The notes beneath the pieces were generated by a model that was given only the letters and a program-made list of their open reading frames with translations, was not told the origin of the DNA and did not search any database. Shown here piece by piece: positions 17,601 to 49,756 of a DNA stretch of 64,000 nt (the first letter of the stretch is position 1; each line of letters begins with the position of its first letter). The translations under genes and the position numbers were made by a program. Source of the DNA: an uncultured Actinomycetes bacterium (GTDB taxonomy: Bacteria; Actinomycetota; Thermoleophilia; UBA2241); NCBI GenBank assembly GCA_963725665.1, contig CAVRZA010000002.1, positions 1-64,000 on the forward strand, given 5' to 3'.

Positions 17601-17801
17601 GCGATCGGCATCGGTGGCAAGGGGGGCTTTCTGTCTACACCGCTGGCCGTCGTCGTCATCGGCGGGCTGTTCACCTCCACGTTCCTGACGCTGATCCTGG
17701 TGCCGGTGCTCTACATGGCGCTCGACCGGTTGCGGCCGGCGAACGCATACGAGGCCCAGGATTGGCATGATGAGCCGGCAGTCGGGATCGCCGGGGAGTA
17801 G
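14615..17801 (+). CDS. AcrB/SwrC-family RND efflux permease, split by a frameshift near 15350-15400
   Basis: ORFs 14615-15559 and 15369-17801 give complementary halves; IGRVIDDSIVVIENI, GIVVTNAIVL and RLRPILMT motifs. Confidence 0.88.
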
Positions 17802-34651: not shown

Positions 34652-34847
34652 CCAAGTCTCCTGCCCCGATCTCGGCTAACGCGCGCCGGGAAGTCCTTCT
34701 CCTGTCGTCGTGGCACGCTGTAACGTGCCGGTCGGGGCCTCAACGAGACATGCGGATCCACCCGCGGACGCCGAAAGGACGTAGAGTCAGCACCTGGTTT
34801 TCGCCTGGGACAAGCACCTAGTTTCGTGTTTGACTCGACCTTAGGCA

Positions 34848-34865
34848 TTGTGGCACCCTTCACAA
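34848..34865. promoter_or_regulatory. Putative Rex operator upstream of cytochrome cassette 1
   Basis: TTGTGGCACCCTTCACAA matches TTGTGAA-N4-TTCACAA at 12/14 positions. Confidence 0.65.
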
Positions 34866-34993
34866 AGCGCGTTCGTTCGACAAGCCGTATTCGCGAGCCG
34901 CCTTCTTAGCGCGAGTGAGAACGAGCGTGCGCCGAGCCGTGGGAGACATGAGGGAATGAGTCCGCAGACCGGCCGTGGCCGGAGAGCAGCGAG

Positions 34994-35926
34994 ATGAGCG
35001 CGCGCCTGCGCCGCTGGCTGCCCGTCTTCGCCGTCGTGGGCGCCGCCTTCCTGCTGGCCGCCGCCGTCTACGTCCCCGTACGGCTGACCTCCACGACCTC
35101 CTACTGTACCTCCTGCCACGAGATGAAGCTGGCCGGCGACAGCCTGAAGCGCTCCCCGCATCGCAACGTCGACTGCCTCTCGTGCCACGTCGACCCGGGA
35201 GTGGGCAACGCCATCACCTGGCGCCTGCAAGAGTCGAAGAACATCTGGGCGTCCTACCTCAACATGCCGGTCAACGAGGGCATGAGCAAGGAGGTGCACG
35301 TCCCCAGCAAGGCAGCCTGCACGCGCAGCGGCTGCCACGACCTGAGCTCGCTGGGCACGACCTTCGGCAACGTGAAGATGAACCACGCCCGGCACGTCGA
35401 GATGCGCGGGCTGACCTGCATCGATTGCCACAGTAGGGTCTCGCACGCCAAACAGGGAGAATCGACCGCCGTCTCCATGGCCTCCTGCTTCATGTGCCAC
35501 AACGGCGCCGCGGCCCCCAACCAGTGCAGCCTCTGCCACGTGACCGTGCCCGCTCAGGCCTCGCATCCACCCAACTACGTCCAGGACCACGGCCGCTTCG
35601 CGCTTCTCAACGAGGCTGAGTGCCTGCGCTGCCACCACGACAAGAAGGCCTTCTGCGACGCCTGCCACGCCAAGCCCACGCCGGCTCACTACTCCGGCAC
35701 CTGGCGCTACACCCACGGACCCACGGCGAGCGCCGACCGCGTCAGCTGTCTCGGCTGTCATGACTACCAGAGCTTCTGCGTCCAGTGCCACCAGGTCGAC
35801 CACCCGAGCGACTGGTCCTCGAGCCACGCAGCGGTGGCCACCAAGGGCGACGAGTCCTGCCTCGTCTGCCACCCGCGCAGCATGTGCAGCGATTGCCACC
35901 AGCAGCGGGGAGTCACCGCCCCGTGA
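34994..35926 (+). CDS. Membrane-anchored NapC/NirT-like multiheme cytochrome c (11 CXXCH + 1 CX4CH), copy 1
   Basis: N-terminal TM helix; first motif CTSCHEM (CXXCHXM); motifs counted by hand. Confidence 0.9.
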   Translation: MSARLRRWLPVFAVVGAAFLLAAAVYVPVRLTSTTSYCTSCHEMKLAGDSLKRSPHRNVDCLSCHVDPGVGNAITWRLQESKNIWASYLNMPVNEGMSKEVHVPSKAACTRSGCHDLSSLGTTFGNVKMNHARHVEMRGLTCIDCHSRVSHAKQGESTAVSMASCFMCHNGAAAPNQCSLCHVTVPAQASHPPNYVQDHGRFALLNEAECLRCHHDKKAFCDACHAKPTPAHYSGTWRYTHGPTASADRVSCLGCHDYQSFCVQCHQVDHPSDWSSSHAAVATKGDESCLVCHPRSMCSDCHQQRGVTAP

Positions 35927-36795
35927 GCCACCGCCGCCTGCTGGCCTTCGCCCTGGCCGCCGCTCTGGCGGCGCTCGCCGCCTGGGCGATGCTCCCCCGA
36001 GAGGCGTTCGCGCAGACGGCTCAGAATCAGAACCAGCGCTGCTTCGCCTGTCACGCGCAGAAGGGTCTGAGCACGGTAGAAGTGAACGGGGCGCTGCGCA
36101 GCGTGGAGGTGAACACCGACTACTGGGCGAGGTCGGTGCACTCGCGTCTCGACTGCACCGCCTGCCACGTCGGCTTCATTCCCGGCAAGCACACCGCCGC
36201 TCAGACCGAAGGCTGGTGGCAGCAGGCGGCGCTCAAGTCGTGCGCCAACTGCCACGCCAACGAGTTCGCCATGTACAAGGGCTCCTTCCACGGCAACTTG
36301 GTCATGAACGAGCAGTCCACGAACGCCCCGACCTGTGGTGACTGCCACGGATCCCACGCCATAGTGGCTACCAATGGCGCGGAGTTCCGAGGCTCTGTAC
36401 CCAGCATCTGCGGTCGCTGCCATCGTGAGCGCTCCTTCACGTACTCCGACACCTATCACGGGCAGGCTACCGAGCTCGGTGGTACTGCGGCCGCAGTGTG
36501 CACGGACTGCCACGGGAACCACAAGATCCTCCCGGCCTCGAACCCTCAGAGCCTCGTCTCTGACAAGCACATCGTGGCTACGTGCCGCAAGTGTCACCCA
36601 AAGGCCAACGCGCTTTTCGCCACCTACCTCGTACACGTCGATCGCGGCGACCCGAGGTCGTCGTTCATCATCTGGCTCTCCGACCTCGCCCACGCCGTTC
36701 TCATCGGCGTCCTCTTCGTGTTCGCCGGTTCGCACTCCCTGCTGTACTTCTATCGAGGACGACGGGAGGGGATCTATGGCCGCCGCACCCACTGA
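35923..36795 (+). CDS. Heptaheme cytochrome c with signal peptide and C-terminal TM helix (CbcA/CbcL-like), copy 1
   Basis: AFA|Q signal peptide, 7 CXXCH, C-terminal hydrophobic helix; GTGA overlap with the upstream gene. Confidence 0.88.
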   Translation: MSHRRLLAFALAAALAALAAWAMLPREAFAQTAQNQNQRCFACHAQKGLSTVEVNGALRSVEVNTDYWARSVHSRLDCTACHVGFIPGKHTAAQTEGWWQQAALKSCANCHANEFAMYKGSFHGNLVMNEQSTNAPTCGDCHGSHAIVATNGAEFRGSVPSICGRCHRERSFTYSDTYHGQATELGGTAAAVCTDCHGNHKILPASNPQSLVSDKHIVATCRKCHPKANALFATYLVHVDRGDPRSSFIIWLSDLAHAVLIGVLFVFAGSHSLLYFYRGRREGIYGRRTH

Positions 36796-37693
36796 CGTTC
36801 GGCCGACAAGGCAGCAGACGCACCCGTCGCGCACGGAGCAAGCGGTGGACGTCGGCAGCCTCGAGTACCGCCGCTTCGGGCCATTTCATCGCTGGGTGCA
36901 CTTCTTCGTGATGGCCAGCTTCACGGTCCTGGTCTTCACGGGCATGCCGCTCAAGTACAAGGATGCAGGGTGGGCCAGGACCGAGATGGACTTCATCGGC
37001 GGCGTGCAGGCGGCCGGGGTGTTCCACCGCTTTGCGGCGATGATCATGGTCTCGTGCGTTGTGTGCGAGCTGTTCTACTTCGCTCGCTATATCCTGGGCC
37101 GAAAGGGCCCTCTATGGGGTCCGGGTACGATGGTTCCCACGCGCAACGACTGGGCGGACATGAAGGCGATGTACCGCTGGTTCTTCGGCCTGGGACCCAA
37201 GCCTGAGGGATTCGACCGCTACACCTACTGGGAGAAGTTCGAGTTCTGGGCTGCCTCGGGCGGCGTGATGACGATGGTCGCCACCGGCTTCATGTTGTGG
37301 TTTCCTGTGCAGACCGCGCGGTTCCTGCCCGGCGTCTTCCTCAACTTGGCCATGGTGAACCATGCGGGCGGCGCCTTACTCGCCATGGGGTTCGTGTTCG
37401 TCTTCTGGCACGTCTTTCACGCCCACTTCAGGCCCGAGGTGTTCCCCTTCGACAAGGTGATGTTCGATGGCACGATGCCGGCTCCGGAGTATGCCGAAGA
37501 GCGGTCCGTGGAGTACCAGCGCCGCGTGCGCTCGGGCACGCTCAGCGAAGTGCTCGTCGAACCTGCTGGGCATACGCGCAAGGCGTTCGAGAACGTCGTT
37601 TGGTGGGCGATCACCCTCATTGCCATGGTCGTCTGGACCATCTTCGCTGTGTTCACGGCGTGGATCACGCTGCTTTGGATCGGCGTACTCTAG
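36776..37693 (+). CDS. Di-heme cytochrome b (FdnI/HydC/CbcB-like), copy 1
   Basis: RRF..FHRWVH..TGMPLKY, FHRFAA, FDRYTYWEKFEFW, NHA and FWH His ligands. Confidence 0.87.
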   Translation: MAAAPTDVRPTRQQTHPSRTEQAVDVGSLEYRRFGPFHRWVHFFVMASFTVLVFTGMPLKYKDAGWARTEMDFIGGVQAAGVFHRFAAMIMVSCVVCELFYFARYILGRKGPLWGPGTMVPTRNDWADMKAMYRWFFGLGPKPEGFDRYTYWEKFEFWAASGGVMTMVATGFMLWFPVQTARFLPGVFLNLAMVNHAGGALLAMGFVFVFWHVFHAHFRPEVFPFDKVMFDGTMPAPEYAEERSVEYQRRVRSGTLSEVLVEPAGHTRKAFENVVWWAITLIAMVVWTIFAVFTAWITLLWIGVL

Positions 37694-38242
37694 GAGCGCC
37701 GTGACCAAAGGCTTGCGCTCCGGCGTACGGCCCCGCCTTGCCCAGAGGGCCGGATCTCGATCCGAACCGCCCCGTGTAGCGCGAATGGGCACACGGCCCC
37801 GCCGTTGCGACCTGCGTCAGACGTGACTACCAGGTCTGTGGCACCCAGCGGTCTGCCAGAGTGTGACAAGCGCGCCGCTTCCTCACTGCGCTCGTACCGT
37901 CCGGCCTAGACCCCACTTATGTCCTGGGCGATGCTCTAGGAGGAGCGTCAGCCGCGGCTCTTCCGTGGGCTTGCGTCAGGTCTTGTCCCCCATCCCCATG
38001 GGGAATGCGAGAGAAACGACAGCCTGACCTCGACCCGTACTCCGCAGTGTCACCTCGCCGCTGTCATGATGCGACGATTTCCCTGCATATCGGGATGCAC
38101 GTGGACGGCGTACCCTAGAAGCTTCTGGGGTTACTACCCTAGACACTAGGGTGGTACTCCTGGGGTAAATTGGGGTGCTGACGCACGTCAGAATGGGACG
38201 AGCAACCGAGTCTCACCGCGCCCCCCCATCGGTACACTAGTT

Positions 38243-38260
38243 ATGTGACTTGAAGCACAA
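38243..38260. promoter_or_regulatory. Weak Rex-like operator upstream of the small ORF at 38285
   Basis: ATGTGACTTGAAGCACAA, 10/14 match to consensus. Confidence 0.4.
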
Positions 38261-38284
38261 GCTAGCGCCAGAGAGGAGGCGACG

Positions 38285-38467
38285 ATGGGCATAGTCGAGT
38301 TGCTTGCATGGGTGGTGTTCGGTGCGATCTGGGTGGGTCTCGTCACGGTGGCGATTCTCGTCATCCTGATGGCGTTCGGGGTCACTCGGTCGGTCATCGC
38401 TGCTCGGGCTGCCGCGGTCACCAAGTCCTTGGTCCCAGCGCGGCATCAGAGCCCGCAGACGCGGTAG
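38285..38467 (+). CDS. Small single-TM protein (60 aa)
   Basis: GAGGAGG ribosome-binding site; LAWVVFG hydrophobic helix. Confidence 0.65.
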   Translation: MGIVELLAWVVFGAIWVGLVTVAILVILMAFGVTRSVIAARAAAVTKSLVPARHQSPQTR

Positions 38468-38765
38468 TCGTCCTTGGCCTGCCCCCCCGGCCGCGGAAGC
38501 GTCTGGGATTCGCAGACCGGCCGAGTGAACATGTGTCTCGCCGGTCGGTGTCAGGGAAAGGGGCGGGGCGCCTTGGGACCGGCTCACGCCTTGGAGGGAG
38601 TCCTGCCGGCGCCCCGGGGACGGATGCTGTTGGCTGACTGAGCGTGTCCGCGCTCGGTCCTCAGCCGCCGCCCTTCTTCGAAGTCTCGCGAGTTCAAGCG
38701 CCACGCGTCGCTCGTCGCGGAGTCTCCGTCTTTCAGCTCGTTCTCTTCAGCCCATCCTGTGTGAG

Positions 38766-38897
38766 CTACTCGTCCGGCTCCTGCTGCTTGCGTCGCCCCG
38801 GAAGCACGATCTTCAAGAGGACCACTACCACGAAAGCGACGCCCGCTGCGAGTACCAAGCCGAACGGGATCCACGCCAGTGACTTGATGAGTTCCAC
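38766..38897 (-). CDS. Small single-TM protein (43 aa), below the ORF-track size cutoff
   Basis: GGAGG ribosome-binding site + GTG; MELIKSLAWIPFGLVLAAGVAFVVVVLLKIVLPGRRKQQEPDE. Confidence 0.6.
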   Translation of the reverse strand: MELIKSLAWIPFGLVLAAGVAFVVVVLLKIVLPGRRKQQEPDE

Positions 38898-38993
38898 CGT
38901 CGCCTCCCCAGGGGTCAGCACCAGCCTTGATCTGACCTCGCCTCCGGTCGACCGCTGCCCCTACATCAGGAGCGTGCTCTCGTGATCACCGGA

Positions 38994-39011
38994 TTGAGGC
39001 ACCCTTCACAG
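38994..39011. promoter_or_regulatory. Putative Rex-like operator
   Basis: TTGAGGCACCCTTCACAG, 16/18 identical to the site at 34848. Confidence 0.55.
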
Positions 39012-39251
39012 GGAGCACTAGCCTATCGGCAAACGACCCTCCGGTAAAGACTGTACTCGTCTGGGGTGTTGTCCCATTCCCCGCTGACGTGACGATCTGT
39101 GGCTGGAGGTCCGTGCGTGCGACTCCGAGCGTTCGTCTCACCGGTACGCCCGCCGCTTTCGAGTCTATTCAGGTTCGGGTCGGGATCGAAGCAAAGCTTC
39201 GGCTCTGCGCGTCATAACGGAGGCTGGGGTGGGTTTGACACCGGACCCAGC

Positions 39252-39269
39252 CTGAGGCATTGTTCACAA
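39252..39269. promoter_or_regulatory. Putative Rex-like operator overlapping the promoter of cassette 2
   Basis: CTGAGGCATTGTTCACAA with a perfect right half-site; TTGACA (39235-39240) lies 17 bp before CATTGT. Confidence 0.5.
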
Positions 39270-39397
39270 GCGTTTTCGATTTCGTGTGTCGGCGCCGTCG
39301 TTACACCATTCTTCCTGTATCTTCGCCGGCGGCGCGCGAGGAGCCATCGGGGGATTGACGGATGAGTGGGCGGTACCCTACCCGGCGCGATGGGAAG

Positions 39398-40331
39398 ATG
39401 AGCGCGCGCCTGCGCCGCTGGCTGCCCGTCTTCGCCGTCGTGGGCGCCGCCTTTCTGCTGGCCGCCGCCGTCTACGTCCCCGTACGGCTGACCTCCACGA
39501 CCTCCTACTGCACCTCCTGCCACGAGATGAAGCTGGCCGGCGACAGCCTGAAGCGCTCCCCGCATCGCAACGTCGACTGCCTCTCGTGCCACGTCGACCC
39601 GGGAGTGGGCAACGCCATCACCTGGCGCCTGCAGGAGTCGAAGAACATCTGGGCGTCCTACCTCAACATGCCGGTCAACGAGGGCATGAGCAAGGAGGTG
39701 CACGTCCCCAGCAAGGCGGCCTGCACGCGCAGCGGCTGCCACGACCTGAGCTCGCTGGGCACGACCTTCGGCAACGTGAAGATGAACCACGCCCGGCACG
39801 TGCAGATAGCCGGGCTGACCTGCATCGACTGTCACAAGACCACCGCCCATTCCGCCAAGGGCCAGTCCGCCGTCGGTCTCCATGGCCTCCTGCTTCATGT
39901 GCCACAACGGCGCCGCGGCCCCCAACCAGTGCAGCCTCTGCCACGTGACCGTGCCCGCTCAGGCCTCGCATCCACCCAACTACGTCCAGGACCACGGCCG
40001 CTTCGCGCTTCTCAACGAGGCTGAGTGCCTGCGCTGCCACCACGACAAGAAGGCCTTCTGCGACGCCTGCCACGCCAAGCCCACGCCGGCTCACTACTCC
40101 GGCACCTGGCGCTACACCCACGGACCCACGGCGAGCGCCGACCGCGTCAGCTGTCTCGGCTGTCATGACTACCAGAGCTTCTGCGTCCAGTGCCACCAGG
40201 TCGACCACCCGAGCGACTGGTCCTCGAGCCACGGTCAAGCCGCGACCGCAGCCCCGAAGTCCTGCCTCGTCTGCCACCCGCGCAGCATGTGCAGCGATTG
40301 CCACCAGCAGCGGGGAGTCACCGCCCCGTGA
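39398..40331 (+). CDS. NapC/NirT-like 12-heme cytochrome c, copy 2, frameshifted near 39860-39875
   Basis: Near-identical to 34994-35926; split over ORFs 39362-40024 and 39882-40331; alternative in-frame start at 39362. Confidence 0.87.
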
Positions 40332-41194
40332 GCCACCGCCGCCTGCTGGCCTTCGCCCTGGCCGCCGCTCTGGCGGCGCTCGCCGCCTGGGCGATGCTCC
40401 CCCGAGAGGCGTTTGCGCAGACGAACCAGGACAACGAACGCTGCCTTCGCTGTCACGCCGACATGTCGGGCACAGTCTCCGCCAACGGCACGCACGCGAG
40501 CCTCGCGGTGTCGCCCGAGACGTACGGCTCCTCGGTGCACTCGCTCCTCGACTGCACCAGTTGCCATCCCAACTTCACCGCGGGTGAGCATTCGGCGGCG
40601 CAGACCGCGGACTGGTGGCGCAAGGCGACTCTTGAATCCTGCGCCAACTGCCACTCCGGCCAGGCCGCGATGTACAAGGGCTCCTTCCACGGCAACCTGG
40701 TCATGAACCAGGGTGCGACCAACGTCCCTACCTGCGGAGGTTGCCACGGCTCACACGGCATCATGAGCACGACGACGAGGAAGTTCCGCGTCTCCATCCT
40801 AGACATGTGCGGTCGCTGTCACGGCGGGCGTGCTGCAAGCTATCTCGATGTGTATCACGGCAAGGCGTTCAAGCTAGGCGACGACTCAGCGGCTGTGTGC
40901 ACGGATTGCCACGGCGCGCATAGGATCCTGCCGGCCTCGAATCCCCAGAGCCTCGTCTCCAGTGAGCACATCGTAGCCACGTGCGCAAAGTGCCATCCCG
41001 GCGCGAATGCTCAGTTCGCCACCTACCTCGTGCACGTCGATCCAAGCTCACCGAAATCGTCCCTGACGGTGTGGCTGTTCTATGCCGCCTACTTCCTGCT
41101 GATCGCCGTCATCTTCACGTTCGGTGCAGTACACAGCGCGATGTACTTCTACAGGGGGCGAAAGGAGGGGATGTATAGCCGTGGCGCAGACTGA
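40328..41194 (+). CDS. Heptaheme cytochrome c (CbcA-like), copy 2
   Basis: Signal peptide identical to copy 1, 7 CXXCH, C-terminal TM helix. Confidence 0.88.
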   Translation: MSHRRLLAFALAAALAALAAWAMLPREAFAQTNQDNERCLRCHADMSGTVSANGTHASLAVSPETYGSSVHSLLDCTSCHPNFTAGEHSAAQTADWWRKATLESCANCHSGQAAMYKGSFHGNLVMNQGATNVPTCGGCHGSHGIMSTTTRKFRVSILDMCGRCHGGRAASYLDVYHGKAFKLGDDSAAVCTDCHGAHRILPASNPQSLVSSEHIVATCAKCHPGANAQFATYLVHVDPSSPKSSLTVWLFYAAYFLLIAVIFTFGAVHSAMYFYRGRKEGMYSRGAD

Positions 41195-42095
41195 GGTCGA
41201 AGTCGCTCGTGAAAGCGAGAAGCGACCCGTCGCTCTCACTAGAGAATCGACGGGCGTGCGTCTCGAGTACAAGCGGTTCAACGCCTTCCATCGCTGGATG
41301 CACTTCCTCACCATGACGAGCTTCACCGTACTCGTGTTCACCGGCATGCCGCTGAAGTACAAGGACGTCGGGTGGGCGCAGGCGACGATGAACCTCATCG
41401 GCGGTGTGGAGAGCGCAGCGATCCTGCATCGTCTCGCCGCTCTGGTGACATTCTTCGCATTCGGCTGCGAAGCCGTCTACATCGCGCTGTACATCGTCCT
41501 GCGCAGGGGCCCACTCTGGGGCAGCGCCACGATCATGTTCTGCCGCAAGGACCTGGCGGACGTGACGGCCATGTTCAAGTGGTTCTTCGGGCGCGGGCCG
41601 TACCCCAGGTTCGACCGGTTCACCTACTGGGAGAAGTTCGACTTCTGGTCGCTCGCCGGGGGCACCGTGATCATCGGCGGCACCGGCCTCATGATGTGGT
41701 TCCCCGTGCAGACGGCCAAACTGCTGCCCGGCGTCTTCCTCAACATCGCGCTGGTGATCCACTCGAACGAGGCACTCCTGGCCGTGGGGGTGATCTTCAT
41801 CTTCGTCCATCTGTTCAGCGCCCATCTCAAGCCGGGCTCGTTCCCTCTCGACAAGGTCATCTTCGACGGTTCGCTCCCCTATCGAGAGTACGTGCACGAG
41901 AGACCGCTGGAGTACGAACGGCGCATCAAGGAGGGTACCCTGGGGCAGGTGCTCGTTGAGTGCGACACGAGCACGACACGCGCGAAGGCGGCGATGGGTC
42001 TGTGGTACGTCATCACCATCATCGCGTTCGTGTGCGCCGCTGGTTTCGGCGTCTTCCTCGCGTGGGCGACGCTCACGTGGATAGGGCTGCTGTAA
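41181..42095 (+). CDS. Di-heme cytochrome b (CbcB-like), copy 2
   Basis: FHRWMH, LHRLAA, FDRFTYWEKFDFW, IHSNEALL, FVHL. Confidence 0.87.
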   Translation: MAQTEVEVARESEKRPVALTRESTGVRLEYKRFNAFHRWMHFLTMTSFTVLVFTGMPLKYKDVGWAQATMNLIGGVESAAILHRLAALVTFFAFGCEAVYIALYIVLRRGPLWGSATIMFCRKDLADVTAMFKWFFGRGPYPRFDRFTYWEKFDFWSLAGGTVIIGGTGLMMWFPVQTAKLLPGVFLNIALVIHSNEALLAVGVIFIFVHLFSAHLKPGSFPLDKVIFDGSLPYREYVHERPLEYERRIKEGTLGQVLVECDTSTTRAKAAMGLWYVITIIAFVCAAGFGVFLAWATLTWIGLL

Positions 42096-42169
42096 GCTAA
42101 TCGACACGGCGCGCGGCTGGGGACGTCGCCGAAGGGCGACGGCGATCCGCGCGCCGGCGGGAGGTTGAC

Positions 42170-43729
42170 ATGGGAGCCATGGGCGTGAGAGGCAAGAGGC
42201 CGGGACTACTGCGCTGGCTCGCTGTGGTCGCGCTCGCGTGCGCGGGCGCGGCGGCCGGGCTGGCGCTCGCCGCCGCGCCCGCGCACGCCTTCGACCTGTG
42301 GCAGCACGACGGCGCCAGCGACTGCGCGTTCTGCCACAGCGCCGGCACGCCCACGAACGCCGTCTGCACGCAGTGCCACCTCAGCTACAAGACGATAAGC
42401 AGCCTGACGTGCTGGGCATGCCATGCCCCGGGCCAGGATGTCAGTTTCTACCAGACGGCGGCTGGTTGTTCGTCCACATGTCATCTCTACGCCGGCGGCG
42501 GACCTGCCGACTACACGGTCCCCGTGTCACACGGAACGACGCCCCATCTGGGGGCTGACTTCGCGCCGTGCACTGCCTGCCACTCGGTCAGTGCCAGCGC
42601 TACCGACCCCGACGGCAGCCCTCATCACGACGGCGTCCCGCAAGGTGTGCCGACGTGCGAGGACTGTCACGACGGCACCTTCGCCTCGGCCAAGCAGCCT
42701 CACGACGGTCTCTCGTGCCAGACGTGTCACGACAACTCGATGTCGCGTCCGGCGCTGAGCAACGCCTACTGCCTGGCTTGCCACGAGAACGCGAGCGACC
42801 AGACGGGGGCGACCCAGATCGTCTTCACTGGCAGCCTGAACTGCTACGACGCGAGCTGCCACGGCGTCGACGTCCTCCATACCACGTCGCCGCAGATGAC
42901 CAAGACCTGCACCGACTGCCACGCGCCCCACTACCAGGGGCTCGGCACGTGCACGACCTGCCACAGCGATGTCGAGGGCTATCACCACGGGCAGGCTCAT
43001 CCGATCCCGCTCGACGACTGCACGGCGTGCCACAACGGCACCCTCGCCCCCAAGAAAGCGAACCACGACGGGGTGACGCCCACGTGCACAGCCTGCCACA
43101 CCGGCATGGACATCCCGCCGCAGCCCGCGACGTGCACGAAGTGCCATTCGTCGGCCACGTTCGGCGGCAAGACCTGCACGAGCTGTCACAGTCCCGGCGG
43201 CATCTTCAAGCAGGAGCAGGTGCACAACACGGCCCCCAACACGGATCCGTGCACCCGCTGCCACGCCGGGTATCAGAAGCACGCCGGCGCCGTGGCCTGC
43301 AGGACGTGCCACGCGAACGCGACCAAGTTCCACCACAAGGTCGTCTCGAGCCCCGGCTTCAAGAAGTGCACGTCTTGTCACTCCAAGAAGCACGCCGGCC
43401 GAAGCATAGCGGCCTCGAAGTGCTCTGTATGCCACAAGGGCAACCGCCCGACCTCCAAGCCGCGGGCGCAACACTCGGTGACGGTCAGCAAGAAGCGCAC
43501 GTGTTCCGCCTGCCACCGCCAGCGAGCGCACGCGTCGGCCGTGTCGAGTGTCACGTGCACTAACTGCCACGGCAGCGTCTTCCACCGCCGCATGCCCATC
43601 CCCACGAGCTCGGTCTGCTACAGGTGCCACGCGAGTGCGAGATCCCACGCTGTGGGCTTCCCGTGCACGGTCTGTCACCCCAACCTCGAGCACAATCCTC
43701 GCCCGAGCGCCGGGTTCGCGAGGCTCTGA
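42170..43729 (+). CDS. Secreted multiheme cytochrome c (21 CXXCH + CX3CH + CX4CH)
   Basis: Sec signal peptide ending AHA|F; 23 heme motifs in ~480 aa of mature chain; no TM anchor; GGAGG ribosome-binding site. Confidence 0.9.
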   Translation: MGAMGVRGKRPGLLRWLAVVALACAGAAAGLALAAAPAHAFDLWQHDGASDCAFCHSAGTPTNAVCTQCHLSYKTISSLTCWACHAPGQDVSFYQTAAGCSSTCHLYAGGGPADYTVPVSHGTTPHLGADFAPCTACHSVSASATDPDGSPHHDGVPQGVPTCEDCHDGTFASAKQPHDGLSCQTCHDNSMSRPALSNAYCLACHENASDQTGATQIVFTGSLNCYDASCHGVDVLHTTSPQMTKTCTDCHAPHYQGLGTCTTCHSDVEGYHHGQAHPIPLDDCTACHNGTLAPKKANHDGVTPTCTACHTGMDIPPQPATCTKCHSSATFGGKTCTSCHSPGGIFKQEQVHNTAPNTDPCTRCHAGYQKHAGAVACRTCHANATKFHHKVVSSPGFKKCTSCHSKKHAGRSIAASKCSVCHKGNRPTSKPRAQHSVTVSKKRTCSACHRQRAHASAVSSVTCTNCHGSVFHRRMPIPTSSVCYRCHASARSHAVGFPCTVCHPNLEHNPRPSAGFARL

Positions 43730-43731
43730 GC

Positions 43732-44766
43732 TTGCGCATCAGGGTCACCACACGCAAGGTGGTCGTCGCCGCCGTCGTTGTGACGGCGTTCCTCGTTCTC
43801 ACAGGCTTCGCGCTGATCTCGACATCGACCACGGCCTTCTGCGGCCTCTGTCACAACATGAAGCCTTCCGTGGACGCGTTGGAGCGCTCGGCGCACGGCG
43901 GCGTGAACTGCGAGCAGTGCCACAGCAAGCCGGGGCCGTTCTTCTTCCTCACCGCTAAGCTGGAGGCGCTGCAAGAGCCTGTGAAGCAGATCAGCGGCAA
44001 CTATGAGGAGCCCATTCTCGGAGTCGTGCAGAACGCCTCCTGTCGCCGCTGCCACACCGATGAGCAGCTGTTTCCGACGATCTCCCGGAACGGCATCAAC
44101 GTCAATCACAAGCACCTGATCGAGGCCGGCTACCAGTGCGTGACCTGCCACTCCACCGTGGCGCACCTCGACGCCGTGCCGGAGGGCTCGCGCGCCTACC
44201 CGACCATGGACCAGTGTCTCGTGTGCCACAACAACCACTACACGGCCGCCGACGGCACGGTAGCCTACAGCCGCTGCGACCTCTGCCACGTCAAGCCTGC
44301 GGCGGGCACAAAGCCCGCCAACCACGTCGCCGACTGGCTGCGCGTTCACGGCAGCGCCGGCGTCCTCTCGACCTGCACCGCCTGCCACCCGCCCGTCGAG
44401 GGCGCTGCGCCTCCGCCAGGCGGCTGGACATCGCACCTCGACTGCACGGGTTGTCACCGTGGGGTCCTCATGCCGCATCCCGAGGTCTGGCTGCACCTGC
44501 ACGGCGCCGCGTCGCTCAAGAAGGGCGAGCAGAGCTGCGCCCTCTGTCACGATACGAAGACCTACTGCGTCGGCTGCCACCGTGTGCCCCTGCCGCATCC
44601 GGCCGACTGGGTGTCCGCTCATCCCCGGGTCGCGCGCGCGGACGCCGCCACATGCATGAACTGTCACAGGATTGAGAACTGCAACGCTTGCCACGAGGCT
44701 CACCAGAAGGGCTCGCCGCCAGCTCACCGCTTCCTGACCGGGCAGATCACGGGGAACGGGACGTGA
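43732..44766 (+). CDS. Membrane-anchored NapC/NirT-like 12-heme cytochrome c
   Basis: N-terminal TM helix, FCGLCHNM, 12 CXXCH; TTG start inferred. Confidence 0.88.
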   Translation: MRIRVTTRKVVVAAVVVTAFLVLTGFALISTSTTAFCGLCHNMKPSVDALERSAHGGVNCEQCHSKPGPFFFLTAKLEALQEPVKQISGNYEEPILGVVQNASCRRCHTDEQLFPTISRNGINVNHKHLIEAGYQCVTCHSTVAHLDAVPEGSRAYPTMDQCLVCHNNHYTAADGTVAYSRCDLCHVKPAAGTKPANHVADWLRVHGSAGVLSTCTACHPPVEGAAPPPGGWTSHLDCTGCHRGVLMPHPEVWLHLHGAASLKKGEQSCALCHDTKTYCVGCHRVPLPHPADWVSAHPRVARADAATCMNCHRIENCNACHEAHQKGSPPAHRFLTGQITGNGT

Positions 44767-44767
44767 C

Positions 44768-45952
44768 GTGAGCGACCGTGAGCCAATCGACCGTCCGCCG
44801 TACCGGCCGCAGCCGGACCCGACGCCGGAGCCGCCCGTGCCTTCGCGCCCCAAGCGGCGCTCGCGCCACCTGCTCGATCTCGTCCTCTCCAAGGGCTGGA
44901 TCGTCGGCGTACTCCTCGGCGTCGTGGTCGTGTTGATCGTCATCGCGATCGGCTTTGCGGTCGTCTACAACAACGCTTTCTGCGACCGCTGCCACGTGAT
45001 CAAGAAGGAGGTCGCCTCGTTCAACGCCTCGAGCCATCATCGTCCCGGAGTCGTTTGCCAGGACTGCCACACCAAGCCGGGGGTGTTCAACTACTTCATC
45101 CGTAACCTGCAGAGCGCAACGCACATCGTCGAGTACATCTCAGGGCGCTACCAGCGGCCTATCGTCACCTACGTGGCGGTCGAGAACTGCGTCACCTGCC
45201 ACCCCAAGGACCAGATAGAGCGCGACATCGTGGTGGGCAACATCCGCGTCAACCACACGGGTCTGCGGGAGGGAGGCTACCAGTGCATGACGTGTCACTC
45301 GCAGGTCGTCCACGGCGACGTCACGCCGGTCGGCTCGCGGGCTCCGGAGAGCACCATGCACATCTGTTGGCGCTGCCACAACGGCGTCGACCAGCCGCAG
45401 CGTTGCTCCATCTGCCACATCAACGGTGTCCCTCCGGGAACTGCTGAAGTCAAGATCCCGGTGCACATGTCGCAGGGCGACTGTACCGGCTGTCACGACC
45501 AGAAGTTCTGCGCCAAGTGCCACCACGGGCTCACGATGCCGCATCCATCGGGTTGGCTGAAGGCTCATGGCCCGGTGGTCGTCCAGCGTGGCGCGGCGAT
45601 CTGCGCCGACTGTCACACCAAGAAGGACCCCAAGTTCTGCATCCGCTGCCACGGCCTGCCCATGCCGCACCCGCCTCGCTGGCTCGCGACGCATCCGGCC
45701 GTGGCGACGAGCAAGCCGGCCCTGTGCGTCAAGTGTCACGGGCAGGACTCGTGCGTGAGGTGTCACGGCGTCGTGCTTCCGCACTCGGCGTCCTTTATCG
45801 GCAGTCACTGGGTAGAGGCTGCTCGGAGCGGCACCGTGTGCGTGAAGTGCCACGGCAACACGTCAGGCGGGACGACGGGCGCCGCGAGCTGTTACGGCGG
45901 CGACTGCCACGCACCTACACCTTCCGGCACGCTGCCCAACGGCAGACCCTAG
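44768..45952 (+). CDS. Membrane-anchored NapC/NirT-like cytochrome c (13 CXXCH + 1 CX4CH)
   Basis: Pro-rich N-terminal tail, TM helix, repeated PHP..W..H di-heme modules. Confidence 0.88.
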   Translation: MSDREPIDRPPYRPQPDPTPEPPVPSRPKRRSRHLLDLVLSKGWIVGVLLGVVVVLIVIAIGFAVVYNNAFCDRCHVIKKEVASFNASSHHRPGVVCQDCHTKPGVFNYFIRNLQSATHIVEYISGRYQRPIVTYVAVENCVTCHPKDQIERDIVVGNIRVNHTGLREGGYQCMTCHSQVVHGDVTPVGSRAPESTMHICWRCHNGVDQPQRCSICHINGVPPGTAEVKIPVHMSQGDCTGCHDQKFCAKCHHGLTMPHPSGWLKAHGPVVVQRGAAICADCHTKKDPKFCIRCHGLPMPHPPRWLATHPAVATSKPALCVKCHGQDSCVRCHGVVLPHSASFIGSHWVEAARSGTVCVKCHGNTSGGTTGAASCYGGDCHAPTPSGTLPNGRP

Positions 45953-46332
45953 CCGGTAGTGTCTCCGCCCGGCCCGGCCGGGCACGTGCTGTCTGGCCGA
46001 CGATCGCCGCTGCACGGCCTCCGCTGCCCTGATAGAGGCAGACCTCCTGCCTTGTTGAGACCCGGCTGCGACCCAGGTTGACGGAAGACACAATAGCCGC
46101 CGAACAGCGAGCGTTGAACCTGAGTCTGGAGGAGGCGGTGGGACGCGGACGTTACGTCTGCCGCTTCTTTTCTGCCCGAATGCGGTGAAGCCCTTCGTGG
46201 CGGGTGGCACGAAGCGCAAGCGCCCGCGCATATGGGTCGCGACGCCTTCTCTACACGCCTCGAGCCCGCTCTGCACCGCCCCCGTGAAAGCGAGCCGTCA
46301 ACAGGCAATCGAGCGAGCCTCCCTCTTCCCTG

Positions 46333-47589
46333 TCAAGGGGACTCAGTCGAAGGGAAGATCGGCAAGATCTTGGCGTAGAAGTAGAAGAGGACGAACGGGA
46401 ATATCAAGACACCGACAGCACCGACCAGGCCCTCCTTCAGGGTGTCCCAGCCGTGCGGCACTATCGGCAGTACGTAGTGCATGTACCCGGCAAAGGTGAG
46501 AGAGAAAGCCTGACCTCCGATAACGACGTTCCATCGCATCATGAACACGCCGAACAAGACGAGCACGACGCCGACGACGGCCCTTCTGATGGTCAACCGC
46601 GGAGCGAGAAACAGAATCAAGGGGACCAGATTACCAAGACCGTATTGCAGCAAGAATATGGAAGTGAACTCGTTGCCGTAGATGGTGCTCCGCAGGACAT
46701 CCCAGGACTTGACGGCCGTATACCCGCGGAACACGAGGTCGAGAAGCTCAAGACTGATGGCCAGAACCAAGAAGAGCAGGAGGTACCTGGAGGTGATCTT
46801 GATCACGCTAACCTCGACACCGCCGATCTCCTTGCGACGCTCGAGCGGATTCGTGGACGATCGCCTTCTGCGCACCAACAGTTTTCTGAGCTCCATGGTC
46901 ACGATATAGGTCAGCATGCAAAGGGCGATGCCCGACACAATCGCCGACATGATGAAGATGACCGGCATGAGTGGGGTCATCCAGAGAGCATTCGCCTTGA
47001 CCGACCCAAAGATGAAACCGGCGTAGCCGTGCAGGAACAGAGCGACGGGAATGCCTACGCCCGCGAGCAGTCGTATCGCGGTCTGATCTTGGCGCTGCGC
47101 CTTCTCGCTGAGGTCATATGAACCGAGGGTGAGTACGGTGAATATCGCGTACGAGAATCTCTCTCTCAGGGTCCTGTGGGTCTTGGCCCTGAGCGACATG
47201 GATCGCTCGACGAAGTGCCTGCGGTAGAGGAACCAGAGCTCAGAGGCCACGATCGCGAAATACGTCGAGAAGACGATGCCAAAAGCGGCGATCGCCGAAG
47301 TGAAATGGGGGGTCATCAGCACGTTGATGCCTCTGAGCGGATGTTGAAGATGCAGCAGAAGCGGCAAGAGCGCTCCAGGCAGCAGCGCAAAGGAGAACAC
47401 CAGGGCGAAGCGAGCTATGTCTTTGAGCTGCTTGATGCCGAACACATGGTAGAGAGATGACAGTACAAATGCTCCGGCGACAAGGCCGGTCATGAAGGGG
47501 TACATGACGATTTGGATGCTCCAGTAGATGTATTCGTTCGGGAGGACGAAAAGGTCCCTTAGCGTCCAGAGTTCGCCGTGTACTACCAT
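46333..47589 (-). CDS. nrfD: NrfD/PsrC-family quinone-interacting membrane subunit
   Basis: WSIQIVMYPFMTGLVAG, LHLQHPLR, LHGYAGFIF..W, RWNVVIGGQ. Confidence 0.85.
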   Translation of the reverse strand: MVVHGELWTLRDLFVLPNEYIYWSIQIVMYPFMTGLVAGAFVLSSLYHVFGIKQLKDIARFALVFSFALLPGALLPLLLHLQHPLRGINVLMTPHFTSAIAAFGIVFSTYFAIVASELWFLYRRHFVERSMSLRAKTHRTLRERFSYAIFTVLTLGSYDLSEKAQRQDQTAIRLLAGVGIPVALFLHGYAGFIFGSVKANALWMTPLMPVIFIMSAIVSGIALCMLTYIVTMELRKLLVRRRRSSTNPLERRKEIGGVEVSVIKITSRYLLLFLVLAISLELLDLVFRGYTAVKSWDVLRSTIYGNEFTSIFLLQYGLGNLVPLILFLAPRLTIRRAVVGVVLVLFGVFMMRWNVVIGGQAFSLTFAGYMHYVLPIVPHGWDTLKEGLVGAVGVLIFPFVLFYFYAKILPIFPSTESP

Positions 47590-47590
47590 A

Positions 47591-48439
47591 TCAGCGCACC
47601 TCCCAGTCCAGGCCAACATAGTAGACTTGAGGTTTGGTCCCAAATTCGCTCTTGAGGACCGCAACACGCTCGGTTAAGATGGTCTTTGTAACGGGATCGT
47701 ACGGGTCTTTGATATTGGCAATCTGCCGTGCGCCGAATGGGCAAGCCTGCACGCAGGCCGGAGGTAGCTCCTTGGTGATGCGGTGATAGCAGAAATTGCA
47801 TTTTTCCGCCGTGCGATAGATTGGGTTGAAGAACCTGGCTCCATAAGGGCATGCCATGATGCAGTATCCGCAGCCGATGCACCATGTCCTGTCAACGAGA
47901 ACGACACCGTCAGGGGCCTGGTAGGTGGCGCCGACCGGACAGACCTGCACACAGGGGGGATTGGCGCACTGGTTGCATAGCTTGGGGACGAAGAAGGCCT
48001 TTTCGATGTCTTCCTGCTTGATGTCCTGATACTCGCCTGCCTGGGTACCGGCCTTGCCGCCAATCTCGGCCGGTTCCCCCTGCTCGGCGCCCTGACCGAG
48101 GTAGATCCTGGGGTCGACGTAGCCGTCGCGGCCGCCCTTTGGAGAGTCGGCATGAAACCCGCCGTCCTTGGTCAGAACGTACCGCTCTACCCAGGTGCGC
48201 GTGACGTTGGCGTCGTAGGGGATCTCGTTCTCCAGTTTGCACGCCTTCACGCAAAAGCCGCACCCGACGCACTTGAAGGTATCGACCAGGAATACCCAGC
48301 GCACTGCCTTGTCTGTCTTTAGTGCTTGCATGCGTGCCGGGCTCAGGAGTTCGAAGGCCGCCGCCGGCACCATGAGTCCTCCTACGGCTAGGGCCGTCTT
48401 CTTCAGGAAGTCTCGTCTCGATACTCGTCTCGACATCAT
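47591..48439 (-). CDS. nrfC: Tat-exported NrfC/PsrB-like 4x[4Fe-4S] protein
   Basis: SRRDFLK twin-Arg signal; CVGCGFCVKAC, CNQC..PPCVQVCP, CIGCGYCIMACP, KCNFC..PACVQACP. Confidence 0.88.
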   Translation of the reverse strand: MMSRRVSRRDFLKKTALAVGGLMVPAAAFELLSPARMQALKTDKAVRWVFLVDTFKCVGCGFCVKACKLENEIPYDANVTRTWVERYVLTKDGGFHADSPKGGRDGYVDPRIYLGQGAEQGEPAEIGGKAGTQAGEYQDIKQEDIEKAFFVPKLCNQCANPPCVQVCPVGATYQAPDGVVLVDRTWCIGCGYCIMACPYGARFFNPIYRTAEKCNFCYHRITKELPPACVQACPFGARQIANIKDPYDPVTKTILTERVAVLKSEFGTKPQVYYVGLDWEVR

Positions 48440-48456
48440 CTCGGGACCTCGCGAGG

Positions 48457-49209
48457 TCAAGGCTGGAGCCGCAAGAACTGCAGGGCCGGTTTGTGTGGGT
48501 CGTGGCACCTGACGCACGCATAGCCGAGGTTATGACGCGGCTTGTCGTGGCATTTCAGGCAGAGCGCCCGGCTCTTGTCGATGGCAAGCTTCGGGGGGTG
48601 AGATGGATGGTTCTGTGCGGGGCCGTGGCAGTCTTCGCACTGGATGACCTCGTGCGGCATCCCGTTCGTACTGTCGACTTGCTCCTGGTGACAGGTCCTG
48701 CACCACACCTTTCCCTGGCGATGGCGGGACGCCGTTGACTGCAGATAACGCAGGTCCGGCTGGTGCGGGAGGTGGCATCTGACACACTCAAAGCCGGGGT
48801 TGTGAGTCCTTGGGTCGATGCCCCTGATGACCGCCCTTGCGCTTGACGGGTATAGCAGTTTGGCGTGGCATCTCAGGCACAGCGCCCGGCTCCTGTCGAT
48901 AACAAGCTTCGGCGGGTCGGTTGGATGATTCCTTGCGGGGCCGTGGCAGTTCTCGCACTGGATGATGGCGTGCGGCATCTCGCTGATCTTGGCGACCTGC
49001 TCCTGATGGCAGGGCTGGCAGTAGTCCTTTCCCTGATACTTGACCGTGACCTTTTTCCAGTCCTCGATGTTTCCTGCGCGGTACCAGCCGTACGTGTAGC
49101 CACGTGCATGCACGCCGAAATCACTTGGCACATAGAGTTGTCGGAATATGACAAGAATGGCGACGATCCCGATGATGACCAGTAGTGGTCTCAGGACGTG
49201 ACTCCTCAC
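48457..49209 (-). CDS. Membrane-anchored octaheme cytochrome c made of a duplicated tetraheme unit
   Basis: N-terminal TM helix, 8 CXXCH in two homologous halves; GGAGG + GTG start. Confidence 0.87.
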   Translation of the reverse strand: MRSHVLRPLLVIIGIVAILVIFRQLYVPSDFGVHARGYTYGWYRAGNIEDWKKVTVKYQGKDYCQPCHQEQVAKISEMPHAIIQCENCHGPARNHPTDPPKLVIDRSRALCLRCHAKLLYPSSARAVIRGIDPRTHNPGFECVRCHLPHQPDLRYLQSTASRHRQGKVWCRTCHQEQVDSTNGMPHEVIQCEDCHGPAQNHPSHPPKLAIDKSRALCLKCHDKPRHNLGYACVRCHDPHKPALQFLRLQP

Positions 49210-49756
49210 GGGCCGAACCTCCGGGCCCATCCCCGCCGCTCGGGTAGCCGTGGACCGCACGTAGAGCGTTGGGGCCGTGGAGAGCGCGCAGCGATCGAGC
49301 GTCCGCCGGAAGAGGTCCTCGCGCTGCTCGCGGCGATAGGGCCGGTGGCCGTACTCACCAGGTGTGCCTGCAAATGCGTAGGGCCGACCTCGTGGTCAAC
49401 TGGACCTCATCTAGTGCGGAGAGGATTTGACAGGACAGAGTAAAGGGTGTCGCAGTTGCGCACAACCACCTGATTCCCTCACGTCGATGGGCACCGGTCG
49501 CGCCGTCTCGCTTCCTGCCTGCCGCGAGTGACTTGGATGATGAGGGGCTCCGTCAAGACCTGTGCGGTTGAAGCTCGATACGGCGGCCCTGTCGGACAGT
49601 GCCTGCTTCCTGCCCCCGCGGTCAGTTGCGCCGCCTCCGTCGGCGCCCGTTCCTTGCCCTTCCCCGCACCCTGGAGAAGTCCGTGAAGCGCGCGAGATGC
49701 GTAAGCGTGAGGTGCCGGCTGTGGAGCAGACCGACCGGGTGGTAGAGTAGGCAGCC

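What the first reader, a model, noticed from the sequence alone, without database searches (positions are those of the whole stretch)
34652..49756. Top candidate: ~95-heme, porin-free multiheme cytochrome island as a quinone-to-surface electron conduit
Seen: 8 c-type cytochrome genes (12, 7, 12, 7, 23, 12, 14 and 8 heme motifs; 90 CXXCH + 5 CX3-4CH), two cytochrome b genes and NrfC/NrfD. No catalytic subunit (molybdopterin, NiFe, CXXCK) and no beta-barrel porin is visible. Established: NapC/NirT, FdnI-type cytochrome b and NrfD are three distinct quinone-interacting families, and Geobacter uses ImcH, CbcL and CbcBA for acceptors of different potential. Inference: several parallel quinol oxidase/reductase entry points feed a long secreted heme wire for extracellular electron transfer in a probable monoderm. 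I know of no described system with this arrangement.
Basis: partly seen in the sequence, partly recalled or inferred. Interest (0 to 1): 0.92.

Follow-up and report, generated by a model that had tools for sequence, protein, structure and literature searches.

The report
Thermoleophilia multiheme quinol-to-surface cytochrome operon
An uncultured actinobacterium without an outer membrane carries, inside its menaquinone-synthesis genes, an enlarged copy of a family-wide set of heme proteins that most likely passes respiratory electrons out through the cell wall; it is built from known kinds of parts in an undescribed arrangement.

Summary
The heme counts are exact (90 CXXCH + 5 CX3-4CH), but this is not a unique island and one of the 8 genes is frame-broken. 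It is an enlarged copy of a six-gene block set between mqnP and ubiX in 20 of 24 family loci examined. The host is most likely Thermoleophilia, a monoderm with Ccm maturation genes. Each 7-heme gene plus its cytochrome b is a split CbcL/MtrH/MtoC quinol oxidoreductase, naturally fused in 10 relatives. The two copies are old paralogs; one lacks a Glu that is otherwise conserved. Two NapC classes keep NrfH quinol-site features. The 23-heme protein is secreted and varies in length among orthologs. The NrfD/NrfC/8-heme unit is a Cbc4-like, low-GC addition. A Rex-like operator precedes the block. Best reading (0.6): a menaquinol-oxidising hub feeding extracellular acceptors, working like the Geobacter Cbc modules joined to a Thermincola-type wall conduit; surface exposure, direction and acceptor are inferred. 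CbcL homologues in Thermoleophilia MAGs are already mentioned in a preprint, and this scan noted the same block in four other genomes. New variant of a known kind; interest 0.5.

The parts
30674..31321 (+). rex, NADH/NAD+ sensing repressor, upstream in the same gene run
   Evidence: NCBIfam Rex 251 bits, cut-off 226
33764..34651 (+). mqnP/ubiA-type prenyltransferase, left flank (futalosine menaquinone pathway)
34848..34865 (.). Rex-operator-like palindrome, 2 mismatches to the consensus, 128 bases before the first gene
   Evidence: one of 3 sites with 2 or fewer mismatches in 3.7 Mb, against 0-3 in 5 shuffles; weaker sites in relatives; binding not tested
34994..35926 (+). N12a: membrane-anchored NapC/NirT-type 12-heme cytochrome, heme 1 motif CxxCHxM
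   Evidence: PF03264 51 bits; family profile hits NrfH 2J7A at E 6.9e-15; one N-terminal helix
35923..36795 (+). A7a: 7-heme c domain of split CbcL-family protein 1; signal peptide and C-terminal helix with His
   Evidence: 30% to P0173 residues 94-352, E 4e-37
36776..37693 (+). B1: cytochrome b half of split CbcL-family protein 1; paralog class without the H-x-x-E glutamate
   Evidence: 41% to P0173 368-600, E 4e-48; 11-member clade, support 99
38285..38467 (+). possible 60-residue hydrophobic protein in the spacer; status unknown
   Evidence: sequence only
39252..39269 (.). second, degenerate Rex-like site (4 mismatches) before module 2
39398..40331 (+). N12b: near-identical copy of N12a, frame-broken near 39875 in this assembly
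   Evidence: frame not tested by reads
40328..41194 (+). A7b: 7-heme c domain of split CbcL-family protein 2
   Evidence: 31% to P0173 89-351, E 1e-37; last five heme spacings 29,31,25,30,28 against 28,31,25,30,28
41181..42095 (+). B2: cytochrome b half of split CbcL-family protein 2; core class with H-x-x-E
   Evidence: 36% to P0173 344-600, E 5e-50
42170..43729 (+). H23: secreted 23-heme cytochrome, cleavable signal, acidic first half and basic last third, no membrane anchor
   Evidence: orthologs carry 12-17 motifs
43726..44766 (+). N12c: membrane-anchored NapC/NirT-type 12-heme cytochrome, CxxCHxM and Lys at the NrfH K82 position (start codon uncertain)
   Evidence: PF03264 61 bits; NrfH alignment; Lys in 22 of 22 rows
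44768..45952 (+). N14: membrane-anchored NapC-like 14-heme cytochrome without the +2 Met; probable relay
   Evidence: PF03264 41 bits; 21 of 21 orthologs have Ile/Val/Leu at +2
46333..47586 (-). NrfD-family integral membrane subunit (CbcU-like)
   Evidence: PF03916 129 bits; GC 56%
47591..48439 (-). NrfC/DsrO-like four-cluster Fe-S protein with twin-arginine motif (CbcT-like)
48457..49200 (-). S8: membrane-anchored 8-heme cytochrome (two 4-heme repeats; CbcS-like position; start approximate)
   Evidence: relatives have 4 or 8 hemes
49757..50392 (+). ubiX, right flank; menG, hepT, mqnE, mqnA, mqnC follow

Best explanation
A menaquinol-oxidising hub with an outward heme chain, used as an electron sink when oxygen is short. 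Shown: gene content, family membership, topology signals, synteny. Inferred: complex I and other dehydrogenases reduce menaquinone; the two split CbcL-family pairs (A7+B) and the NapC-type N12a/b and N12c oxidise menaquinol; their 8-10 extra hemes and N14 carry electrons away from the membrane; the secreted H23 and, in some genomes, Ig-tailed cytochromes or an OcwA-like protein encoded elsewhere take them through the wall to humic quinones, Fe(III)/Mn(IV) or other cells. The Cbc4-like NrfD unit is an optional extra entry. Rex would switch the block on when NADH builds up. It works like Geobacter's inner-membrane Cbc modules joined to a Thermincola-type wall conduit.
For: A7+B align end to end with a listed CbcL/MtrH/MtoC member; that family's proteobacterial members in L018 and L024 lie beside DmsE/MtrA-family decahemes above cut-off. 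N12a and N12c keep the NrfH heme-1 pattern (NrfH ligands from 10.1101/2025.04.14.648717). The block sits in the heme and menaquinone gene run in 22 of 24 family loci examined, 20 with all six genes; two further loci hold only remnants. No catalytic subunit travels with it. H-family proteins vary in length and carry alternative Ig-like or hydrophobic tails, as a wire would and an enzyme would not. The genome has Ccm genes, no outer-membrane markers, an OcwA homolog (6I5B, E 1.8e-18) and two Ig-tailed relatives of H23. The oxygen branch has its own cytochrome bc genes next to the oxidase, and 11 of 44 CbcL-bearing family genomes show no COX1 match. Rex-like sites with 4 or fewer mismatches occur in 8 of 32 upstream regions against 0.65 in shuffles; rex lies near NapC pairs in 6 of 18 loci from other families of the phylum.
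Against: No expression, localisation or activity data. H23 has no lipobox, LPxTG or Ig tail, so its attachment is unknown, and its model was too poor to show a wire (pLDDT 60.5, pTM 0.39). The OcwA-like gene is found in only 10 of 44 CbcL-bearing genomes. The CbcL/MtrH/MtoC family serves both directions with no distinguishing feature (PMC6295460). Multiheme clusters do not guarantee metal reduction: Anaerosoma tenue has 18 multihemes and does not reduce Fe(III), and deleting such clusters in D. ferrophilus had no effect (PMC9769857). The Rex-like site is absent from 24 of 32 upstream regions, no relative's locus reaches 3 or fewer mismatches, and kin are not independent.
Confidence: 0.6

Rival explanations
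1. The block is mainly an electron store or a contact for partner cells: about 60-95 hemes per set buffer the quinone pool across oxic-anoxic swings, or pass electrons to syntrophic partners, without respiring minerals or humics.
For: Very high heme load with freely varying chain length; host has both an oxidase and Wood-Ljungdahl and Hdr/Mvh-type genes; no terminal reductase is co-distributed.
Against: Storage alone would not need a cleaved, secreted member with surface-type tails in paralogs, nor two old CbcL paralogs kept in 10 of 16 loci.
Confidence: 0.15
2. The chain feeds a dedicated catalytic enzyme encoded elsewhere: the OcwA/MccA/NrfA-fold protein acting on nitrite or hydroxylamine, a molybdopterin enzyme, or the heme-copper oxidase.
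For: NapC/NrfH proteins classically feed soluble reductases (established knowledge); OcwA reduces nitrite slowly (PMC6703420); 33 of 44 CbcL-bearing genomes have a COX1-family match; the genome has many molybdopterin genes.
Against: OcwA-like gene in only 10 of 44; none of 5 molybdopterin subunits and 1 Fe-S partner checked shows a twin-arginine motif; the oxidase has adjacent cytochrome bc genes; 20 of the 44 genomes without the CbcL gene still have COX1.
Confidence: 0.13
3. The chain runs inward: electrons from Fe(II), reduced humics or conductive particles reduce menaquinone, to drive oxygen respiration or carbon fixation.
For: MtoC of Fe(II) oxidisers belongs to the same family; the host has an oxidase and acetyl-CoA synthase; NapC-type CymA is reversible (passage).
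Against: A Rex operator would switch the block on when the cell is over-reduced, which fits a sink (Rex behaviour from PMC2883068; site evidence moderate); 11 of 44 carriers show no oxidase match.
Confidence: 0.12

Closest known systems
CbcL (GSU0274) / MtrH / MtoC family of bc-type quinol oxidoreductases (PMC6295460; 10.1101/2021.04.15.440034)
   Same: [quoted passage not shown]
   Different: Split into two genes after the first helix; 7 hemes instead of 9; always preceded by a NapC-type 12-heme gene; two old paralogs, one lacking the H-x-x-E glutamate; monoderm host without porin. The 2018 survey listed 0 in Actinobacteria; a 2022 preprint mentions CbcL homologues in Thermoleophilia MAGs.
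Geobacter CbcBA / Cbc5 (CbcA 7 hemes, CbcB, CbcC 12 hemes)
   Same: Separate 7-heme protein with a C-terminal helix that carries a His, a separate cytochrome b and a neighbouring 12-heme gene.
   Different: CbcB has four helices, B has five by alignment with fused orthologs; likeness to PDB 28PB (taken to be CbcA) covers only the first hemes (E 1e-6 and 7e-9); the 12-heme proteins here are membrane-anchored NapC types.
Thermincola ImdcA-PdcA-CwcA-OcwA pathway (PMC7911101, PMC6703420)
   Same: Monoderm host, membrane multiheme entry, secreted multiheme relay, OcwA homolog in the genome.
   Different: No OmcS/CwcA match for H23 in solved structures; OcwA-like gene is patchy; CbcL-type and NrfD-type entries added; homology to ImdcA and PdcA not tested.
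Geobacter Cbc4 (CbcS-CbcT-CbcU)
   Same: Anchored c-type cytochrome, four-cluster Fe-S protein and integral membrane subunit without a catalytic subunit.
   Different: 8 hemes (duplicated 4-heme unit) instead of 4; sequence homology to the Geobacter proteins not tested; function of Cbc4 itself is unproven.
Multiheme clusters of Anaerosomatales (Parvivirga hydrogeniphila, Anaerosoma tenue; PMC9686372)
   Same: Actinomycetota; clusters of two putative quinol-oxidising multihemes with a third multiheme, and a cluster with maturation genes and Rex; tandem NapC-type pairs recur in most of the 18 phylum loci fetched.
   Different: No CbcL-type cytochrome b in those 18 loci; direct homology to the published loci could not be checked (their sequences were not at hand; the supplement held as text had no match).

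Membership tests
CbcL/MtrH/MtoC | N-terminal c domain with 3-23 CxxCH motifs | tested here: met
   7 motifs in A7a and A7b; range from PMC6295460
CbcL/MtrH/MtoC | Sequence homology over both domains to a listed member | tested here: met
   P0173 agrees in organism name, length (637) and all nine motif positions with row OFW44602.1 of Table S2; A7 30-31% (E 1e-37), B 36-41% (E 1e-48 to 1e-50)
CbcL/MtrH/MtoC | Six transmembrane helices | tested here: met
   Fused ortholog L040:4816-6648 shows signal plus six helices; the simple scan found only 1+4 and 1+3 in the window's pairs, which align along the whole fused protein
CbcL/MtrH/MtoC | His in helices 1, 2, 3 and two His in helix 5 | tested here: met
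   (all 35 cytochrome b rows; A7 C-terminal His in both copies); pattern
CbcL/MtrH/MtoC | Single polypeptide | tested here: not met
   Two overlapping genes in both window copies; fused in one module of 10 of 16 loci
CbcL/MtrH/MtoC | Menaquinol oxidation in a defined potential window | not testable with these tools
   needs biochemistry
CbcBA (Cbc5) | Seven-heme subunit with C-terminal helix | tested here: met
CbcBA (Cbc5) | Cytochrome b with four helices and three His, unrelated in sequence to CbcL | tested here: not met
   B has four conserved His, five helices by alignment, and clear homology to the CbcL family
CbcBA (Cbc5) | Full-length homology to CbcA | tested here: inconclusive
   28PB hit covers residues 36-184 only; that 28PB is CbcA is my inference: the entry is named 'Cytochrome c' and the review prints '2BPB'
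NapC/NirT (NrfH type) | N-terminal anchor and PF03264 domain above cut-off | tested here: met
   51, 57, 61, 41 bits against 24.1; one helix each
NapC/NirT (NrfH type) | Heme 1 with Met two residues after the motif, and a basic residue at the NrfH K82 position (numbering recalled) | tested here: met
   N12a/b: Met and Arg; N12c: Met and Lys. N14 has neither and fails this row
NapC/NirT (NrfH type) | Partner catalytic subunit (NrfA, NapA, TorA) encoded alongside | tested here: not met
   none in the block or in the 24 family loci
ImcH | Three N-terminal helices, one CX3CH and six CX2CH | tested here: not met
   one helix and 12-14 motifs; definition
Cbc4 (CbcSTU) | Anchored c cytochrome + four-cluster Fe-S protein + integral membrane subunit, no catalytic subunit | tested here: met
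   same trio in 9 of 9 related loci
Cbc4 (CbcSTU) | Tetraheme CbcS | tested here: not met
   8 hemes here; 8 in five related loci, 7 in a frame-broken one, 4 visible in three whose loci may cut the gene
Cbc4 (CbcSTU) | Sequence homology to GSU0068-0070 | not tested
Thermincola-type wall conduit | OcwA-type surface reductase in the genome | tested here: met
   G000:C1:225736-228351, 9 hemes, E 1.8e-18 to 6I5B; 6I5B named as OcwA
Thermincola-type wall conduit | OmcS-like CwcA wall filament | tested here: inconclusive
   H23 gave no OmcS match by sequence; model too weak for fold comparison
Porin-cytochrome conduit (MtrCAB, Pcc) | Beta-barrel porin and outer membrane | tested here: not met
   no PF11854, no PF01103, no PF03331 over cut-off in a 97.5% complete genome

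The most novel reading that the evidence does not exclude
A Rex-controlled, potential-tuned quinone hub in monoderm Actinomycetota. The two old CbcL paralogs differ at the glutamate next to a heme b ligand (absent in 11 of 11 B1-type, present in 20 of 20 B2-type), and many NapC orthologs swap the heme-1 His for Lys (CxxCKxM, CxxCKxH, CxxCKxT). These could set different potentials or opposite directions, letting the cell both unload electrons onto and recover them from humic or mineral surfaces through one porin-free wire: a Geobacter-like branched entry system evolved in a Gram-positive lineage of freshwater sediments.
Probability: 0.2. Interest if true: 0.78.

Novelty: new variant of a known kind. 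Interest (0 to 1): 0.5.

Why it matters
Gram-positive extracellular electron transfer is characterised in very few organisms. A conserved operon in about half of one Thermoleophilia family (cytochrome b in 44 of 88 genomes; secreted cytochrome in 53 of 88) would mark a common uncultured sediment lineage as a likely humic or metal reducer, and gives marker genes and expressible proteins to test. The natural split and fused CbcL forms, the Glu-less paralog and the His-to-Lys heme-1 variants are ready-made comparisons for the open question of what sets the potential window and direction of these quinol oxidoreductases.

Tried and rejected
Single-sequence structure prediction of H23 failed (pLDDT 32); the 50-sequence model reached pLDDT 60.5, pTM 0.39; Foldseek gave no match at E 0.001 and VIA-align only Z 3.7 (rmsd 3.6, 75 aligned) to NrfB over residues 403-479, which shows nothing about novelty of fold. 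The ESM Atlas gave only generic multiheme clusters under 0.9 for H23. No complex prediction could be obtained, so binding of N12a to A7+B is open. Giant 60-130-heme proteins hit by the H profile score weakly per domain (best domain E 2e-7 or weaker) and are not claimed as homologs. Filing A7+B as CbcBA was rejected. Treating the duplication as a recent tandem copy or a mis-assembly was rejected: paralogs are old and both copies appear in other runs. Using the one-base deletion seen in three runs as proof of an intact N12b was rejected: those contigs differ from copy 2 by 30, 26 and 40 letters, close to the 31, 22 and 43 expected of copy 1. No RNA holder listed. The sigma-70 and terminator scan was at chance level. 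No solved structure matched the cytochrome b or NrfD sequences. The one supplement of PMC9686372 held as text had no cytochrome table; supplements of bioRxiv preprints were not visible and may list Thermoleophilia CbcL loci.

Full report
Observation. The region holds 93 six-frame CXXCH against 0.9 in shuffles and 1 in the rest of the window. Pfam and NCBIfam confirm four NapC/NirT-type genes, two cytochrome b genes, an NrfC-like and an NrfD gene, and no catalytic subunit. One gene, the second 12-heme copy (39398-40331), is broken by one extra base near 39875. A rough paralog-based count finds 51 frame breaks among 364 testable loci in this assembly, so an error is likely. Contigs of three other runs lack the base, but their difference counts show they are the first copy, so the frame is untested.

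Host. The closest named loci are titled Actinomycetes or Thermoleophilia (3 of 11 loci); I take the host to be Thermoleophilia. The genome is 97.5% complete with 5% contamination. It has no Omp85, no MtrB/PioB and no LpxC over cut-off. It has CcmE-, CcmF-, CcmB-, CcmC- and CcsB-like genes in one cluster (all NCBIfam scores but CcmC's near miss are well below curated cut-offs, the Pfam assembly family is above), acetyl-CoA synthase, complex I, a heme-copper oxidase with adjacent cytochrome bc genes and a second cytochrome b cluster. Hdr/Mvh-type genes near C2:521-527 kb are read from sequence and one NiFe match.

Context and spread. The block lies between mqnP and ubiX in a run of heme and futalosine menaquinone genes that includes rex. 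Of 8 same-family loci, 6 hold all six core genes (12-heme NapC, 7-heme, cytochrome b, secreted multiheme, 12-heme NapC, 14-16-heme NapC) and 2 hold only remnants at the same site. Of 16 further same-family loci, chosen because they had strong N14 hits, 14 hold all six and 2 hold only the last three; 10 hold two copies of the first three. Across genomes: N14 matches 33 of 55 in the family, 20 of 55 in one other family and 0 of 190 in the rest of the class; the cytochrome b 44 of 88; the secreted cytochrome 53 of 88. N12c relatives occur in 43 of 400 phylum genomes, mostly as tandem pairs, with rex nearby in 6 of 18 loci fetched. The NrfD/NrfC/8-heme unit is on the other strand, has lower GC, occurs in 9 of 300 other class genomes and is not part of the block in any of the 24 family loci. 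It is an addition in this genome.

The cytochrome b pairs. A7 and B align in order along P0173, which agrees in organism, length and nine motif positions with a member listed in the CbcL/MtrH/MtoC survey. Ten family loci carry a natural one-chain version with 7 hemes and six helices. The His pattern is the one described for CbcL. A quick tree of 44 rows (the careful search did not finish) puts B1 in an 11-member clade with support 99, apart from the B2 type; fused forms lie inside split forms in two places. All 11 B1-type proteins lack the Glu three residues after a heme ligand; all 20 B2-type and 120 of 120 hits keep it. In 9 of 9 other two-module genomes compared, the two 12-heme paralogs are 45-49% identical, whereas here they differ at 47 bases; gene conversion is the simplest reading, and mosaic contigs in other runs fit it. 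One contig of run X3 bridges the end of N12b and A7b with no difference, so the second module exists outside this assembly.

The NapC-type proteins. N12a and N12c have Met two residues after heme motif 1 and a basic residue where NrfH has its quinol-site Lys (NrfH residue numbers recalled; ligands). Among orthologs the motif His is often Lys: N12a class 14 HxM, 8 KxM, 8 KxT of 30; N12c class 17 KxH, 3 HxM, 1 KxM of 21. That the His can be lost while position +2 stays Met or His fits an NrfH-type heme 1. N14 has Ile, Val or Leu at +2 in 21 of 21 orthologs, so it is more likely a tethered relay (inference).

The secreted cytochrome. H23 has a cleavable signal, no lipobox or anchor, 22 spare His in the mature chain for 23 hemes, an acidic first half and a very basic last third. 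Orthologs have 12-17 motifs (22 rows; one frame-broken row with 5 left out) and share the basic end; a 519-residue relative with 22 CxxCH exists elsewhere, so the long form is real. Other family members end in Ig-like or hydrophobic tails, and two Ig-tailed relatives are in this genome. An OcwA homolog with the same kind of tail lies on C1 but is found in only 14 of 88 family genomes, 10 of them among the 44 CbcL carriers. Structure prediction did not settle the shape.

Regulation. An 18-base palindrome at 34848 is two mismatches from the Rex consensus (PMC2883068) and one of three such sites in the genome. Sites with 4 or fewer mismatches occur in 8 of 32 upstream regions, two of them this window's, against 0.65 in shuffles; 24 have none, mostly from the largest genus. 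This is moderate evidence only.

Mechanism. Shown: parts, families, topology signals, synteny. Inferred: menaquinol is oxidised at the CbcL-type and NapC-type sites; electrons run along anchored and secreted heme chains to external acceptors when oxygen is short (0.6). Rivals: storage or partner contact (0.15), feeding a catalytic enzyme elsewhere (0.13), inward flow (0.12). Against the main reading, the family works in both directions, and multiheme clusters did not predict or were not needed for Fe(III) reduction in two cultured organisms.

Known and new. Papers seen as passages: PMC9686372 (one supplement searched), PMC10376724, PMC13591261, 10.1101/2021.04.15.440034 (29), PMC7911101, PMC6295460 (passages 54, section 10 in 57, rows of Table S2 in 61), 10.1101/2022.08.31.506072 (55), PMC6703420, PMC13503563, 10.1101/2025.04.14.648717 (90), 10.1101/2022.03.26.485925 (114), PMC9769857, PMC2883068. 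None was read whole. Searches turned up no description of this operon; the library lacks most subscription journals. The lake preprint reports CbcL homologues and outer-surface multihemes in 8 of 19 Thermoleophilia MAGs. Four earlier notes of this scan describe the same block or the split CbcL pair in other genomes; I had reached that reading before seeing them and count them as no support.

Verdict. A real, conserved respiratory operon made of known module types in an undescribed, porin-free arrangement; this genome's 95 hemes come from a second CbcL module, a longer secreted chain and an added Cbc4-like unit.

Noticed in passing
G000:C1:225736-228351 and C2:467963-470527: Two secreted OcwA-like multiheme cytochromes (9 and 8 motifs) with a C-terminal Ig-like tail; the second looks split from its tail by a frame break. 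Only the first was tested against solved structures.
   Followed up: partly
G000:C11:412643-415155: A second tandem pair of NapC-type genes with 18 and 9 CXXCH motifs and a different repeat unit.
   Followed up: no
G000:C4:369751-370905, C11:14030-15271 and seven other ORFs: A basic C-terminal Ig-like domain of about 90 residues shared by secreted cytochromes and other secreted proteins; possible surface-targeting tail.
   Followed up: partly
L040-L055 (family loci): Heme-1 motif of NapC-type proteins is often CxxCK followed by Met, His or Thr at +2; motif counters that look only for CxxCH miss this heme, and CxxCK here need not mean an NrfA-type catalytic site.
   Followed up: partly
L038 (G021) and L039 (G016): Near-complete genomes in which the block between mqnP and ubiX has decayed to fused or short remnants.
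   Followed up: no
G000:C11:114449-116997 and C4:579850-587358: Two separate cytochrome bc-type clusters, one next to a heme-copper oxidase.
   Followed up: no
G000:C6:69564-72215: ORF with an NrfD-like start joined to a PhsA-like molybdopterin domain, after a DsrO-like Fe-S gene; may be two genes merged by a frame error.
   Followed up: no
window 301-1176, 4382-5334, 14615-17801: IS982 transposase; a sulfide:quinone reductase-like gene and an RND permease gene each split across two frames.
   Followed up: no
L025:324-7102: A Myxococcales locus holds both a split pair (9-heme + cytochrome b) and a fused CbcL-type gene around a 33-heme gene, so split forms occur outside Actinomycetota.
   Followed up: no
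G000:C11:295564: One of the other two best Rex-like matches lies between dnaA- and dnaN-like genes and may be an origin feature, not an operator.
   Followed up: no
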